A DNA stretch of 21,093 bases from the IMG/VR virus record IMGVR_UViG_2579778952_000011, positions 1 through 21,093 of that record; one strand, 5' to 3'. Position numbers and translations under genes: made by a program. Below, in pieces: positions 7,236-11,441 of this stretch. Position 1 is the first letter of the stretch. Every line of letters starts with the position of its first letter. The notes under the pieces are model-generated. The model was not told the origin of the DNA. It saw nothing but the letters and a program-made list of their open reading frames with translations, and made no database searches. The stretch comes from a virus. Taxonomy: Duplodnaviria > Heunggongvirae > Uroviricota > Caudoviricetes.

Positions 7236-9632
7236 ATGAGTACCACAACACGAAAATTTAAAACCGTTATCACCGATACGGGTGCAAAAAAATTAGCTCA
7301 GGCAGCCGCGCCAGATGGTAAGCCTGTCCGCCTGACTCATATGGCCGTGGGCGACGGTGGCGGCACGTTGCCCACACCAGACAGTAAGCAGACCCGTCTG
7401 GTGCATGAGGTGTGGCGACATACTGTTAATCGCGTCATCCTGGACGCAACACATCAGAATCGCATTATTGCGGAGCTGGTTATTCCTCCAGAAACGGGCG
7501 GATTCTGGATCCGGGAAATTGGTGTGTTTGATGAGCACGGCGATTTAATCGCGGTGGGCAATACTGCCGAAAGTTACAAGCCAGCCGTTGCCGAAGGGTC
7601 CGGTCGTGCACAAACATTTCGCACCATTCTGACCGTATCCAGCACTGCCACTGTGGCGCTTACCGTGGATAACACCATGGTGATGGCCACAGTGGATTAC
7701 GTGGATAACAAACTGAAAGAGCATGAACAGTCACGACGTCACCCGGATGCCTCGCTGACCGCAAAAGGCTTTGTTCAACTCAGTAGCGCCACTAACAGCG
7801 TGTCTGAAACACAAGCTGCAACGCCGAAAGCAGTAAAGGCCGCGTATGACCTTGCTAACGGGAAATATACTGCGCAGGATGCCAGCACAACGCGAAAAGG
7901 CCTTGTCCAGCTCAGTAGCGCCACCAACAGCGATTCTGAAACGCTGGCGGCAACACCAAAGGCGGTAAAGGCAGCATATGACCTTGCTAACGGGAAATAT
8001 ACCGCACAGGACGCTACCACAGCGCGAAAAGGTCTTATCCAGCTCAGCAGTGCGACTAACAGCACTTCCGAGTCACTGGCGGCAACGCCAAAAGCCGTTA
8101 AGGCCGCGTATGAGCTGGCTAACGGGAAATACACCGCACAGGATGCAACGACAGCACAGAAAGGGATAGTTCAGCTTAGCAACGCGACCAACAGCACATC
8201 TGAAACGCTGGCGGCAACGCCAAAGGCGGTAAAGGCAGCATATGACCTTGCTAACGGGAAATATACCGCACAGGACGCTACCACAGCGCGAAAAGGTCTT
8301 ATCCAGCTCAGCAGTGCGACTAACAGCACTTCCGAGTCACTGGCGGCAACGCCAAAAGCCGTTAAGGCCGCGTATGAGCTGGCTAACGGGAAATACACCG
8401 CACAGGATGCAACGACAGCACAGAAAGGGATAGTTCAGCTTAGCAACGCGACCAACAGCACATCTGAAACGCTGGCGGCAACGCCAAAGGCGGTAAAGGC
8501 AGCATATGACCTTGCTAACGGGAAATATACCGCACAGGACGCTACCACAGCGCGAAAAGGTCTTGTCCAGCTCAGTAGTGCAACCAACAGCACGTCTGAA
8601 ACGCTTGCCGCGACCCCGAAAGCGGTTAAAGCTGCTAATGACAATGCAAACGGGCGTGTGCCCTCTGGACGTAAGGTTAATGGCAAACCACTGACCAATG
8701 ATGTCAATGTTACATCACAGGATATTTTTAACGGTCAGAGTATTAATATTGGTGCAAACCAGAATCTGGATAATTACAAAACGCCGGGGCTGTACCATCA
8801 ACCCCTGAATGCCTATACAAGTGCAGCGCTGAAATACCCAGAGAATCTTGCCGGTACACTGGTTGTGCTTAAAAATGCCGGGATAACACAGATTTACTAT
8901 GTGTATAACACATCCAGAAGCTATACCCGCAGCCAGTACTCAACGGGTGACTGGACAGCATGGACGCCGCAGGATTCATTTCCTGTAGGTGCGGCGATTC
9001 CGTGGCCTTCTGATTCAGTGCCTACAGGCTATGCCGTTATGCAGGGGCAGACTTTTGATAAAACAACCTATCCCCTGCTTGCAGCAGCTTATCCCTCTGG
9101 TGTACTCCCCGATATGCGTGGCTGGACAATCAAGGGCAAACCCGCCAGTGGTCGGGACGTATTGTCTCTGGAACAGGATGGCATTAAATCGCACACCCAC
9201 AGCGCCAGCGCATCCAATACGGATTTGGGTACGAAAACCACATCTTCGTTTGATTACGGTACTAAATCAACGAATAACACAGGTGCACATACCCACAATG
9301 TATCTGGTACTGCAAATAGTGCTGGCGCACATACTCATACCGTGCCATTAAGGAGACCAAACAGTGGCGGTATGAATTTCGACTGGCTGGATGGTGCATC
9401 AAGTGGCACGGTGGTAGGGAATGGAACTGTGCCTTCTTCTGGCGCACATACCCACTCAGTATCAGGCACCGCTACAAGTGCTGGGGCACATGCACACACT
9501 GTTGGTATTGGCGCTCATACGCACTCTGTTGCGATTGGTTCACATGGACATACCATCACCGTTAACGCTGCTGGTAACGCGGAAAACACCGTTAAAAACA
9601 TCGCATTTAATTATATTGTGAGGCTTGCATAA
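7236..9632 (+). CDS. H: Tail fibre protein H with expanded fibre repeats and a His-rich distal tip
   Basis: 798 aa. Conserved P2 H-like N-terminus, seven tandem 44-aa repeats (KG[FLI][26 protein letters not shown]), a tail-collar-like segment ([28 protein letters not shown]) and repeated GAHTH motifs. Confidence 0.9.
7764..8687 (+). repeat. Seven tandem 132-bp coding repeats inside H, including an exact 264-bp tandem duplication
   Basis: Sequence 7957..8300 is identical to 8221..8564 (344 bp at a 264-bp offset). Successive repeat units begin at 7764, 7896, 8028, 8160, 8292, 8424 and 8556. Confidence 0.9.
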
Positions 9633-10249
9633 TGGCATTCAGAATGAGTGAACAATCACGCACTGTAAAAATTTATAACCTGCTGGCCGGAACTAATGAG
9701 TTTATTGGTGAAGGTGACGCATATATTCCACCTCATACAGGGCTGCCAGCTAATTCTACAGATATCGCCCCACCGGAAATTCCTGCTGGCTTTGTGGCAG
9801 TTTTTAACAGTGAAAATGAATCGTGGAATATTGTTGAAGACCATCGTGGTAAAACGGTCTATGACGTGGCATCGGGGGACGCGTTGTTTATTTCTGAACC
9901 CGGACCGCTACCAGAGAATGTCACCTGGTTGTCGCCAGCAGGGGAATATCAGAAGTGGGACGGCGTATCCTGGGTGAAGGATGAGGAAGCAGAAAAACTG
10001 TTTCGGATACGGGAAGCGGAAGAGAAAAAGGCAAGGTTGATCCAGGAGGCAACAGATAACATCGCAATCCTGCAGGATGCAGTTAATCTTGAAATAGCAA
10101 CAAACGAGGAAAATTCACAACTGGATTCCTGGAGAAAATACAGAGTATTAGTGAGTAGAATTGACACCAGTACAGCTCCGGATATCGTATGGCCAGAGCT
10201 GATGAATCAGGGTTATGTGCGGGAGGACGAGCAGATAACTTCAGACTGA
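9632..10249 (+). CDS. G: Tail fibre assembly chaperone (Tfa/gpG-like)
   Basis: TAATG overlap with the H stop; 205 aa; position and size typical of Tfa. AT-rich relative to the tail core genes. Confidence 0.8.
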
Positions 10250-10776
10250 AATTTAGTGATGAATGTTGAATCATCAGGAATATCATGCAATACCAATGCA
10301 TGAGCACCTATTGTGACATTGTTTCCTATACGCACTTTGCCACCAAGAATGGTGGCATTACAACCAATGGTCACATTATGTCCTATAACAATATCCATAT
10401 CATTAAAATCACCACGTAGCCCAATAGTTACCCCCGGTTTTATTGAACAATTTTCACCGATTGTTACTTTGTGACCGATAACAACACTGTTGAGATAAGA
10501 AATATCAAAACCTTTCCCTATATTTACAGTTAAAGGGACTGTTACATTATATTTATCAAGAATGAAACGTTCTATTTTCCCCGCAATCTTCCGACAGTAT
10601 CCGCCTTTATCAAAAAGGTATTTGGCTATGCGCCACCAAAATAAATAACGAAGTCTTCTATGTTTTATTGCGCGAACAATTGCCTTTCGCCAGGAGAAAG
10701 GACGCTCGCTACCGATTACTTCATAGTGAATACAGTCTTTAAGTTCATTAATATTCATATCTCTATTATTCAGCAT
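10213..10776 (-). CDS. Hexapeptide-repeat (left-handed beta-helix) acyl/acetyltransferase, CysE/WcaB-like; moron
   Basis: Clear [LIV]-G-x4 hexapeptide repeats ([20 protein letters not shown]...[35 protein letters not shown]) after an N-terminal helical region. Sits in an AT-rich island. Its 3' end overlaps the G stop convergently by 37 bp. Confidence 0.8.
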
Positions 10777-10899
10777 AAGATAATCATGTGACCAATTATT
10801 GTAATAATTTTAATGGTATGTTTCTACTGGCTATCCAGCGTGTCTGATACCCAGTAACAAATCGTTAACACAGGTGCAATCAAATGGTGAGTGTTAAGA

Positions 10900-10939
10900 C
10901 TGGCCACTTATTACCAGGTATGAGGGTATGAGTGGCCAG
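10900..10939 (-). other. 9-bp inverted repeat (ctggccact / agtggccag) enclosing a tandem ggtatgag ggtatgag, immediately 3' of U
   Basis: Seen directly in the sequence. Could be a weak terminator or protein-binding site at the left edge of the minus-strand tail block. Confidence 0.3.
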
Positions 10940-10946
10940 CATTAAA

Positions 10947-11441
10947 TCAGAACAGCCCTTTAACTGAACTGGCCGCGCTGTTAAGGGATGATGTCACTTT
11001 ATCTTTGAAGCCGGACAGAATATCGCTGAACGATGAGGATTGCAGGCGCTCCCGCAAATCCTCATCACAGCGTTCAAGGGTCAGTGAAAATTCTATCTTT
11101 TTCGCCTTACCGTAGCGATCAAACTCGGAACGGGTCGTATTCGTTTCGGTCAGGACATACATGCCGTAAATCTGCCCGACGCCATCAATAAGAGGCCAGG
11201 GGCGTCCTGTATACGCCTGCGTGGTCAGCAGCGACAGCGACACTTCGCCACCTGTAATTTCAGGATAAAGCACACCAGAAAGAACGATGCGATCATCACC
11301 TGCACCGATATACTGCCAGCTTGCTGAACGGTTAACGCGTTCATTTTTCACATGCCGCCAGCTTTTGTTTTGCTGTAACTGCTGATGCGGCAGCGTGCGC
11401 AGCTCAAAAACAAACATGCCGTAGATCATCATCATGGCCAT
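10947..11441 (-). CDS. U: Tail protein U
   Basis: A roughly 162-aa ORF directly downstream of T on the minus strand. GAGGAG Shine-Dalgarno; the start is probably the second ATG at 11435. Confidence 0.75.
   Translation of the reverse strand: MAMMMIYGMFVFELRTLPHQQLQQNKSWRHVKNERVNRSASWQYIGAGDDRIVLSGVLYPEITGGEVSLSLLTTQAYTGRPWPLIDGVGQIYGMYVLTETNTTRSEFDRYGKAKKIEFSLTLERCDEDLRERLQSSSFSDILSGFKDKVTSSLNSAASSVKGLF

What the first reader, a model, noticed from the sequence alone, without database searches (positions are those of the whole stretch)
10213..10946. AT-rich moron between tail fibre chaperone G and the tail block encodes a hexapeptide-repeat acetyltransferase
The G/FI junction is a known cargo site in P2-like phages (P2 carries Z/fun there). 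The cargo here is a CysE/WcaB-like left-handed beta-helix acetyltransferase on the opposite strand, in sequence much more AT-rich than the tail genes. Its C-terminus runs antisense into the end of G, suggesting a junction-truncated insertion. Phage-borne enzymes of this fold can O-acetylate surface polysaccharide (NeuO of the CUS-3 prophage is a precedent). It could therefore mediate receptor modification or superinfection exclusion, or act as a single-gene defence or immunity factor against the element's own tail. This is my leading candidate for a previously undescribed function in the window.
Basis: partly seen in the sequence, partly recalled or inferred. Interest (0 to 1): 0.65.

Follow-up and report, generated by a model that had tools for sequence, protein, structure and literature searches.

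The report
Tail-fibre-linked phage acetyltransferase-like cargo gene
This is a real, conserved prophage cargo gene that travels with a tail-fibre tip and its chaperone, is related to genes inside lipopolysaccharide-core operons, and so probably alters the host's phage receptor, although this copy lacks the usual catalytic residues.

Summary
A 187-aa ORF (10213-10776, minus strand; likely true start 10758, 181 aa) encodes a hexapeptide-repeat protein with a serine-acetyltransferase (CysE) fold. Its DNA is 35-39% GC against about 50% in the flanks.

The context needs correcting. The window is an E. coli P88-like (Xuanwuvirus) prophage, and the junction is G|U, not P2's G|FI.

The gene is not truncated. 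The 37-bp overlap exists because G lost its stop codon and gained 16 residues.

It is the last gene of a 1.87-kb cassette of fibre tip, chaperone (Tfa) and acetyltransferase (about 8979-10846). P2-like and P1-like phages share this cassette at 93-97% identity. Relatives sit convergent with fibre genes in many other backbones.

Chromosomal relatives lie inside LPS-core operons: waaY-waaZ-AT-waaL in Leminorella and a second enterobacterium, and the Pseudomonas core cluster.

It is not CysE. The serine-binding residues are absent, and the Asp-His catalytic dyad, kept in nearly every relative, is Thr-Tyr here. Yet dN/dS is 0.06-0.13.

Best reading: a lysogenic-conversion gene that modifies LPS core, the fibre's likely receptor. 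The chemistry of this allele is uncertain, and no published test of the family was found.

The parts
10213..10776 (-). Acetyltransferase-family ORF (187 aa from the ATG at 10776; more likely 181 aa from the ATG at 10758). It has four N-terminal helices followed by a left-handed beta-helix.
   Evidence: phrog_2154, E=7e-79, full length. PGAP start. AF2 model with pLDDT 89.7. All top Foldseek PDB hits are serine acetyltransferases. dN/dS is 0.06-0.13.
10495..10497 (-). Codon for Tyr94, at the position of the CysE general-base His158.
   Evidence: HMMER alignments to CysE structures. In the 139-sequence alignment, His is kept in every relative outside this subclade.
10540..10542 (-). Codon for Thr79, at the position of CysE Asp143, the acid partner of the dyad.
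   Evidence: This position is D or E in nearly all relatives and T, K or V in the Tyr subclade.
10777..10846 (-). Upstream leader and promoter region that moves with the cassette. It contains a sigma-70-like site, TAGAAA-17-TACAAT, at 10826-10798.
   Evidence: Promoter scan, 9 of 12 matches, weak evidence. Cassette homology to the P1-like contigs ends at 10846, and to the roughly 82%-identical variants (L119, L120) at 10827.
9632..10249 (+). Tail-fibre assembly protein G (Tfa). Its last 16 residues (about 10202-10246) are a lineage-specific extension read antisense through the 3' end of the acetyltransferase gene.
   Evidence: Caudo_TAP match, E=1.6e-39. In variants L119, L124 and L127 the Tfa ends at ...IVWPEL with no overlap. 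Rac/Qin TfaR and TfaQ homology stops at 10029.
8979..9632 (+). C-terminal receptor-binding tip of tail fibre H (lambda-Stf-like, ending ...[11 protein letters not shown]). This is the left part of the mobile cassette.
   Evidence: The cassette boundary lies at 8979 or 8997.
10847..10946 (.). Junction spacer between the cassette and the P88 backbone. It contains an 18-nt inverted repeat (10894-10911 / 10928-10945) just after the gpU stop codon.
   Evidence: P88 homology resumes at 10942. Inverted repeat I2.
10947..11441 (-). gpU tail protein, the first backbone gene on the far side. It is a neighbour, not part of the cassette.
   Evidence: Phage_P2_GpU match, E=5.5e-39. 98% identity to P88.

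Best explanation
The ORF is an intact, selected lysogenic-conversion gene. It is the distal member of a mobile cassette of fibre tip, Tfa and acetyltransferase, which recombination moves between unrelated temperate phages (P2-like, P1-like and others). It is transcribed from its own promoter, convergently to the fibre genes.

The protein is a soluble, presumably trimeric, CysE-fold left-handed beta-helix acyltransferase-family protein. Its closest non-phage relatives are encoded inside LPS core-oligosaccharide operons. [quoted passage not shown] That would change the structure seen by LPS-core-binding fibres. Consequences could include exclusion of the phage's own kind and of related phages or tailocins, and altered surface antigenicity.

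Shown here: the gene, its fold, purifying selection, cassette mobility, fibre linkage, and the waa-operon relatives.

Inferred: the substrate (LPS core), the acetyl transfer, and the exclusion phenotype. In this allele the canonical Asp-His dyad is Thr-Tyr, so catalysis may proceed differently, for example through a Tyr base or an amine acceptor, or may be replaced by binding.
For: Gene and fold:
- Hexapeptide repeats and a serine-acetyltransferase fold.
- Strong purifying selection, dN/dS 0.06-0.13 across alleles that are 89-98% identical at the protein level.

Cassette mobility:
- Window 8979/8997-10846 is 93.5-97% identical in contigs whose flanks are 97-99% identical to P1-like phage JL22.
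- The cassette is found at >=80% coverage in 199 of 5426 complete E. coli genomes.

Linkage to fibre genes:
- After dereplication at 90%, 15 of 37 clusters have a convergent Tfa or fibre within 150 bp and 3 more within 1.5 kb.
- Named examples are phiNP, yong2, JL22, and Salmonella Mu-like, Leclercia P2-like and Proteus prophages.
- Within one backbone, different acetyltransferase alleles go with different tip and Tfa alleles.

LPS-core operon relatives:
- Leminorella: waaG-P-B-I-Y-Z-AT-<waaL.
- A second enterobacterium: waaQ-G-P-GT8-waaY-waaZ-AT-<waaL<waaC<waaF<hldD.
- Pseudomonas core cluster: kinases, carbamoyltransferase, GT2, AT ... msbA.
- These are interleaved with phage copies in an NJ tree.

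Background:
- Core-OS O-acetylation is known in Pseudomonas, but the enzymes are unidentified (PMC8005017).
- From established knowledge, P1, P2 and Mu fibres bind LPS core, and exclusion genes are often linked to receptor-binding-protein genes (T5 llp, phi80/N15 cor).
Against: - There are no biochemical or phenotypic data.
- In this allele the general-base His and its Asp partner are Tyr and Thr. His is kept in every other relative examined, so acetyl transfer is not assured.
- The position just past the fibre genes is a general cargo hot spot. hicAB, hok and DUF4760 genes lie nearby in relatives, so adjacency alone could be coincidental.
- About half of the dereplicated clusters are not next to a fibre gene. 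They lie next to an integrase or in chromosomal islands.
- Lambda-Stf-type tips are known to use OmpC (own knowledge), not only LPS.
- Only three waa-type contexts were found.
- The promoter call is weak.
Confidence: 0.42

Rival explanations
1. It is a catalytically inactive or re-purposed pseudoenzyme. The Thr-Tyr allele keeps the trimeric beta-helix scaffold and ligand binding but no longer transfers acetyl groups. It would act by binding, for example by sequestering or blocking an LPS-core intermediate or a partner enzyme, or it would use different chemistry.
For: Tyr replaces the otherwise invariant His, and Thr, Lys or Val replaces Asp/Glu, only in this subclade. The position of the acid partner varies within the subclade, as expected once it is released from constraint. 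No compensating His is conserved across the subclade. The protein is nonetheless under strong purifying selection and sits at the same fibre-linked position as the His-type alleles.
Against: Some left-handed beta-helix N-acyltransferases work without a catalytic His (WlbB, QdtC; own knowledge), so loss of His does not prove inactivity. The coils that bind CoA in CysE (own knowledge) look the same as in the His-type relatives. No binding partner is known.
Confidence: 0.17
2. It is an O-acetyltransferase for another envelope polysaccharide (O-antigen unit, capsule, colanic acid or ECA) rather than LPS core. That would be classical seroconversion of the NeuO or WbbJ kind.
For: The best family-level similarities are to the polysaccharide acetyltransferases EpsC and WcaB and to the NeuD family. 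Phage-borne acetyltransferases that modify capsule are documented (NeuO, PMC13001214 listed; Acinetobacter Atr; Klebsiella prophages).
Against: All scores are far below the family cut-offs. Within the gammaproteobacterial clade, the only polysaccharide loci found to hold relatives are LPS-core operons. The same cassette occurs in E. coli strains of different O types, O6:H16 and O166:H15. That argues against an acceptor specific to one O-unit.
Confidence: 0.15
3. It is generic cargo with an unrelated small-molecule substrate (xenobiotic or antibiotic acetylation, or a metabolic role), and its position next to fibre genes reflects only a permissive insertion site.
For: There are weak hits to Vat, CatB, LacA and Maa families. 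The junction after the fibre genes carries other unrelated cargo in relatives. Published notes call it a 'fitness' gene without evidence.
Against: Hits to xenobiotic acetyltransferases cover only the repeat region, with E-values of 1e-5 to 1e-7 and scores of 22-32 bits against cut-offs of 300 bits or more. The waa-operon relatives and the co-inheritance with tip and Tfa alleles would then be unexplained.
Confidence: 0.12
4. It is an intracellular anti-phage defence or immunity factor, or a toxin-like single-gene system.
For: It sits in a prophage accessory position. TA genes (hicAB, hok) are neighbours in some relatives.
Against: PADLOC gave no hit even at E<=1. No partner gene is conserved. 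Close relatives are embedded in biosynthetic LPS-core operons.
Confidence: 0.06
5. It is a housekeeping-type serine O-acetyltransferase (CysE), as the database annotation says, and boosts cysteine synthesis.
For: The PGAP product name is 'serine acetyltransferase'. The top PDB sequence and fold hits are CysE.
Against: It scores 70.6 bits against the TIGR01172 cut-off of 210.65, and 44.4 against 397 for PRK11132. Asp143, Asp157, His158, Arg192 and His193 are Thr, Ser, Tyr, Met and Asp. It is 181-187 aa against about 273 aa for CysE. Pfam reported no match outside the hexapeptide-repeat families. It lacks the C-terminal tail with which CysE binds CysK (own knowledge).
Confidence: 0.02

Closest known systems
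LPS-core-operon hexapeptide acetyltransferase genes (uncharacterised), e.g. Leminorella grimontii waaZ-AT-waaL and the Pseudomonas core-cluster gene
   Same: They belong to the same protein family: 40% identity to the window protein and 57% to phage phiNP's copy. They share the same size and domain layout and fall in the same gammaproteobacterial clade in the NJ tree.
   Different: They are chromosomal and co-oriented within the waa operon. They keep the Asp/Glu-His dyad that the window allele lacks. They are untested themselves.
CysE serine O-acetyltransferase
   Same: It has the same fold, an alpha-helical N-terminal part plus a left-handed beta-helix. CysE gives the best PDB sequence and structure matches, with TM-scores of 0.6-0.74.
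   Different: The window protein is about 90 residues shorter. The catalytic dyad and all serine-binding residues are replaced. It scores far below the family cut-offs, and its genomic context is different.
NeuO, the K1-capsule O-acetyltransferase of prophage CUS-3
   Same: Both are soluble hexapeptide-repeat acetyltransferases carried by a prophage that change a surface glycan and phage sensitivity (own knowledge; PMC13001214 abstract).
   Different: NeuO has a phase-variable 5' heptanucleotide repeat array (own knowledge), and none is present here. NeuO lies in a P22-like phage and acts on polysialic acid. No direct sequence comparison was made.
Membrane seroconversion acetyltransferases (Oac of Sf6, D3 O-acetylase, OafA/GtrC)
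   Same: They share the genomic logic: a conversion gene placed just beyond the tail spike or fibre gene, near att/int (own knowledge). Here, several relatives lie beside an integrase.
   Different: Those are integral-membrane acyltransferase-3 proteins that act on the periplasmic side. This protein is a soluble, cytoplasmic-type beta-helix protein.
Exclusion genes linked to receptor-binding-protein genes (T5 llp next to pb5; cor of phi80/N15/HK022)
   Same: The proposed logic is the same: a receptor-masking gene is physically linked to the gene for the protein that recognises that receptor, and the two are exchanged together (own knowledge; cassette evidence).
   Different: Llp and Cor are small lipoproteins or outer-membrane proteins that block FhuA directly. 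They are not enzymes and are not related in sequence.
P2 Z/fun cargo locus and the P88 invertible fibre segment
   Same: The gene occupies the variable slot immediately after the fibre chaperone gene G. A Leclercia P2-like prophage carries a family member exactly between G and FI.
   Different: In the window the neighbour is gpU, because the tail block is inverted. P88 itself carries an alternative fibre, an alternative Tfa and a DNA invertase in this slot.

Membership tests
Left-handed beta-helix (hexapeptide-repeat) acyltransferase superfamily | Hexapeptide repeats scoring above the Pfam gathering threshold | tested here: met
   PF00132 scores 47.5 bits against a cut-off of 27.
Left-handed beta-helix (hexapeptide-repeat) acyltransferase superfamily | Predicted left-handed beta-helix fold | tested here: met
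   AF2 model with pLDDT 89.7 and pTM 0.84. It shows short strands in a regular repeating pattern after four helices. 79 PDB matches with E<=0.001, and the top 50 are all serine acetyltransferases.
Left-handed beta-helix (hexapeptide-repeat) acyltransferase superfamily | Acyl-CoA-dependent acyl transfer | not testable with these tools
   This needs an enzyme assay.
CysE serine O-acetyltransferase | Score above the curated equivalog cut-offs | tested here: not met
   TIGR01172 scores 70.6 against 210.65. PRK11132 scores 44.4 against 397.
CysE serine O-acetyltransferase | Asp143-His158 catalytic dyad | tested here: not met
   These positions are Thr79 and Tyr94.
CysE serine O-acetyltransferase | Serine-binding Asp157, Arg192 and His193 | tested here: not met
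   These positions are Ser, Met and Asp, giving the signature 'TSYMD'.
CysE serine O-acetyltransferase | Full-length architecture (about 273 aa with a complete N-terminal helical domain) | tested here: not met
   The protein is 181-187 aa. Pfam matched only the hexapeptide-repeat families (Hexapep, Hexapep_2, LbH_EIF2B) at E<=0.01. The alignment to CysE starts at CysE residue 108-128.
WcaB / EpsC polysaccharide O-acetyltransferases | Score above the curated equivalog cut-offs | tested here: not met
   EpsC scores 81 against 150. WcaB scores 61.9 against 196 and 59.8 against 194.65.
NeuO-type phage capsule O-acetyltransferase | Phase-variable heptanucleotide repeat array at the 5' end | tested here: not met
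   Only one trivial repeat, two copies of 8 nt, was found in 10000-11100, and it lies outside the ORF.
NeuO-type phage capsule O-acetyltransferase | Sequence relationship to NeuO | not tested
PHROG phrog_2154 (phage protein family of unknown function) | Full-length profile match | tested here: met
   E=7.2e-79. Residues 5-186 match profile positions 2-184 of 185.
Gammaproteobacterial phage / waa-operon acetyltransferase clade (defined in this report) | Groups with the clade to the exclusion of Bacteroidota-type and true-SAT-like outgroups | tested here: met
   In the NJ tree the window groups with the L004, P0015 and P0016 clade at 100% bootstrap, inside the gammaproteobacterial family.
Gammaproteobacterial phage / waa-operon acetyltransferase clade (defined in this report) | Conserved Asp/Glu ... 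His pair | tested here: not met
   The window subclade has Thr ... Tyr. Members outside this subclade keep His.
P2 Z/fun cargo locus | Lies between G and FI | tested here: not met
   In the window it lies between G and gpU. This feature is met in the Leclercia relative L176.
Known anti-phage defence systems (PADLOC-DB 2.0) | Match to any defence-protein model | tested here: not met
   0 families at E<=1.
Membrane acyltransferase-3 seroconversion enzymes (Oac/OafA) | Acyl_transf_3 membrane domain | tested here: not met
   There is no such Pfam hit, and the model is a soluble helix plus beta-helix fold.

The most novel reading that the evidence does not exclude
The Thr-Tyr subclade may be a CysE-fold protein that lost the universal Asp-His dyad yet is kept under strong purifying selection inside a mobile tail-fibre cassette. 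On this reading it works by chemistry or binding not described for this fold. Examples would be base-independent N-acylation of an amine on LPS, or stoichiometric blocking of an LPS-core assembly step. That would be a new way for a prophage to mask the receptor of its own fibre. By extension, the His-type relatives in waa operons would be the long-sought LPS-core O-acetyltransferases.
Probability: 0.2. Interest if true: 0.7.

Novelty: new variant of a known kind. Interest (0 to 1): 0.5.

Why it matters
Prophage genes that re-decorate surface glycans change phage sensitivity, tailocin sensitivity, serotype and immune recognition. The known examples act on O-antigen or capsule. A soluble enzyme family shared between LPS-core operons and tail-fibre cassettes would extend seroconversion to the LPS core.

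It would also explain a gene that is mis-annotated as 'serine acetyltransferase' in about 4% of complete E. coli genomes and in P1-like phage-plasmids. It would give candidate genes for core-OS O-acetylation, whose enzymes are still unidentified in Pseudomonas (PMC8005017).

The cassette structure matters for engineering host range. Swapping a fibre tip in nature brings a linked host-modifying gene with it. The dyad-less allele is a clean test case for how much of the catalytic machinery this fold needs.

Tried and rejected
- **Defence system:** PADLOC gave no hit at E<=1.
- **CysE orthology:** rejected on score, residues and length.
- **Xenobiotic acetyltransferase:** only repeat-region hits, far below cut-offs.
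- **NeuO-like phase variation:** no repeat array.
- **Junction-truncated insertion:** rejected. The gene is full length against phrog_2154 and its relatives, and the overlap comes from an extension of G.
- **Decaying remnant:** rejected by dN/dS of 0.06-0.13.
- **Remnant of the P88 invertible segment:** no inverted repeats bracket the cassette and no invertase is present.
- **Literature:** searches for the accession, for 'serine acetyltransferase' with prophage and tail fibre, for P2 hot spots with acetyltransferase, and for phage-encoded LPS-core acetylation found only two passing mentions as unexplained cargo. No functional study turned up.
- **Structure prediction:** It was repeated with alignment A3.
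- **Trimer or ligand model:** none could be made, so the position of Tyr94 in the inter-subunit site rests on sequence alignment only.
Full report
**1. Observation**

The ORF is real. It spans 10213-10776 on the minus strand and encodes 187 aa. It matches Pfam Hexapep above threshold. The closest curated families are EpsC, CysE and WcaB, all far below their cut-offs. GC falls to 0.35-0.39 across 10200-10950, against about 0.5 in G and gpU.

The ORF converges on the tail-fibre chaperone G (9632-10249, Caudo_TAP) and overlaps it by 37 bp. The gene on the other side is gpU (10947-11441), followed by the tape measure. PGAP calls the identical gene 'serine acetyltransferase' and starts it at the second ATG (10758, 181 aa). 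Relatives begin at the same position.

**2. Where the window comes from, and the junction**

The region is 100% identical to prophages in E. coli O6:H16, O166:H15 and other strains. The backbone is that of phage P88 (Peduoviridae, Xuanwuvirus).

In this phage type the FI-FII-E-T-U block is inverted relative to P2. The slot after G therefore abuts gpU, not FI. In P88 the slot holds an alternative fibre, an alternative Tfa and a DNA invertase. P88 homology resumes at 10942. A Leclercia P2-like prophage does carry a family member exactly between G and FI.

**3. The gene is not truncated and not decaying**

- It matches phrog_2154, a phage family of unknown function, over positions 2-184 of 185.
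- It ends within a few residues of its relatives.
- In a variant about 90% identical (L119, L124, L127), the Tfa ends at ...IVWPEL just beyond the acetyltransferase stop codon, with no overlap. In the window lineage the Tfa has 16 extra residues ([15 protein letters not shown]) read antisense through the 3' end of the acetyltransferase gene. The overlap is therefore an extension of G.
- Pairwise dN/dS between alleles that are 89-98% identical at the protein level is 0.06-0.13.

**4. A mobile cassette**

Window 8979/8997-10846 covers the last ~217 residues of fibre H, all of G, the acetyltransferase gene and 70 bp upstream of it. This stretch is 93.5-97% identical in IMG/VR contigs of 45-95 kb. 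The flanks checked (L112, L115 and L118) are 97-99% identical to the P1-like phage JL22. The same stretch is about 82% identical in further variants.

A weak sigma-70-like site (10826-10798) lies inside the shared upstream stretch. The cassette is present at >=80% coverage in 199 of 5426 complete E. coli genomes. The common Rac/Qin StfR/TfaR/TfaQ relatives match only up to window 10029, in mid-Tfa, and lack the acetyltransferase gene.

Within the P88 backbone, other loci (L134, L135) carry a different acetyltransferase allele (52% identity) together with different Tfa and tip alleles. JL22 carries yet another allele, 'sacF', between cin-S-U and the tfa-stf pair.

**5. Linkage to fibre genes across phages**

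Family members lie directly beyond, and convergent with, the fibre or Tfa gene in:
- Hafnia phage yong2, Citrobacter phage phiNP and P1-like JL22;
- a Salmonella Mu-like prophage, a Leclercia P2-like prophage and a Proteus prophage;
- many IMG/VR contigs.

After dereplication at 90%, 15 of 37 clusters have a convergent Tfa or fibre within 150 bp, and 3 more within 1.5 kb. The remainder lie next to integrases at prophage ends or in chromosomal islands.

One caveat applies. This junction also carries unrelated cargo such as hicAB, hok and DUF4760, so it is a general hot spot.

**6. Relatives in LPS-core operons**

- In Leminorella grimontii the family member follows waaG-waaP-waaB-waaI-waaY-waaZ and precedes the convergent waaL.
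- In a second enterobacterial assembly the order is waaQ-waaG-waaP-GT8-waaY-waaZ-AT-<waaL<waaC<waaF<hldD.
- In Pseudomonas mendocina-group contigs it sits between the core kinases, carbamoyltransferase and GT2 genes on one side and msbA on the other.
- In an NJ tree these chromosomal genes are interleaved with the phage copies. The enterobacterial waa genes are sister to the phiNP, Salmonella and Leclercia phage group.

Core-OS O-acetylation is documented in Pseudomonas, and its enzymes remain unidentified (PMC8005017). This is guilt by association, but it recurs in three lineages.

**7. What the protein is not, and its odd active site**

The AF2 model (pLDDT 89.7) shows four helices plus a beta-helix. 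Its best PDB matches are all CysE.

Alignment to CysE structures places Thr at Asp143, Ser at Asp157, Tyr at His158, Met at Arg192 and Asp at His193. In a 139-sequence alignment of relatives, His158 is kept everywhere except in the window subclade (window type plus yong2 type), which has Tyr. Asp143 is Asp or Glu almost everywhere else, and Thr, Lys or Val in this subclade. Only distant, true-SAT-like sequences keep the serine-binding set.

The protein is therefore not a serine acetyltransferase. This allele has also lost the canonical dyad while remaining under strong constraint. No compensating His is conserved across the subclade. Some beta-helix N-acyltransferases manage without a catalytic His (own knowledge), so inactivity is not proven.

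**8. Interpretation**

The best-supported reading is a lysogenic-conversion gene derived from LPS-core acetyltransferase-family genes and carried together with the fibre tip and chaperone. [quoted passage not shown]

The proposed logic parallels exclusion genes that sit next to receptor-binding-protein genes, such as T5 llp and phi80 cor. It also parallels seroconversion genes placed after tailspike genes (own knowledge).

The gene, fold, selection, mobility, linkage and waa-operon relatives are shown. The substrate, the chemistry and the phenotype are inferred. The rivals, in order, are:
1. a non-catalytic or re-purposed protein;
2. another envelope glycan as target;
3. an unrelated small-molecule substrate;
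4. an intracellular defence factor (no PADLOC hit);
5. CysE (rejected).

**9. Prior knowledge and novelty**

The gene has been noticed twice as unexplained cargo. The JL22 paper says the reason for its presence 'is still unknown'. The Citrobacter rodentium prophage paper lists it as a 'fitness' gene. No functional study was found.

Phage-borne acetyltransferases that modify capsule or O-antigen are a known kind. What is new is a soluble family shared between LPS-core operons and fibre cassettes, together with a dyad-less allele. I therefore rate it a new variant of a known kind, of moderate interest.

Noticed in passing
window 7763-8650 (within H, 7236-9632): The tail-fibre gene has seven Phage_fiber_2 repeats, encoded by near-perfect repeats with a period of about 132 bp. 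These also generate a series of repeated spurious antisense ORFs. The number of repeats differs between related prophages.
   Followed up: partly
window 10202-10249: In this lineage the Tfa protein G carries a 16-residue C-terminal extension ([15 protein letters not shown]). It arose by loss of the stop codon found after ...IVWPEL in variants about 90% identical. Whether the extension affects chaperone function is unknown.
   Followed up: yes
window 10357-10409 and 10783-10820: Two adjacent inverted-repeat pairs (23 nt at 83% and 14 nt at 93% complementarity) could pair the acetyltransferase 5' leader and promoter region with an internal coding stretch about 400 nt away. This may be chance in AT-rich DNA, or a regulatory long-range stem.
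   Followed up: no
window 10894-10945: An 18-nt inverted repeat lies immediately after the gpU stop codon and straddles the point (10942) where homology to phage P88 resumes. It could be a terminator for the tail operon or a recombination scar.
   Followed up: no
L008 8001-9697 (Enterobacteriaceae bacterium BIT-l23): Three hexapeptide-repeat genes lie in tandem (181, 193 and 195 aa) in a non-phage chromosomal island. Two of them belong to this family (P0015 and P0127).
   Followed up: no
L014 1773-9140 (P1-like phage JL22): The family member 'sacF' lies between cin-S-U and the convergent tfa-stf pair. It may therefore sit inside the cin-invertible fibre segment, in which case inversion would flip it. 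Other P1-like contigs (L112-L118) lack cin-S-U and carry the window-type allele instead.
   Followed up: partly
L001 10232-12033 and L130 6001-6558: Some copies of this prophage are degraded. Strain M9682-C1 has a deletion running from baseplate gene V into the fibre gene. IMG/VR locus L130 has a deletion from baseplate gene J to within the acetyltransferase gene, which replaces the protein's C-terminus.
   Followed up: partly
L001 20684-22249 (right end of the same prophage in strain M9682-C1): After ogr the prophage carries a hok/gef toxin gene, a zinc-ribbon gene and a gene annotated as the T6SS-associated protein TagO, before the host flk gene. These are further cargo and were not examined.
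   Followed up: no
L004-L007 8764-9432 and L179-L181 4662-4803: In HP1-like E. coli prophages the family member sits at the prophage end beside a DUF4760 gene or a hok/gef gene. The slot beyond the fibre genes is therefore a multi-cargo hot spot.
   Followed up: no
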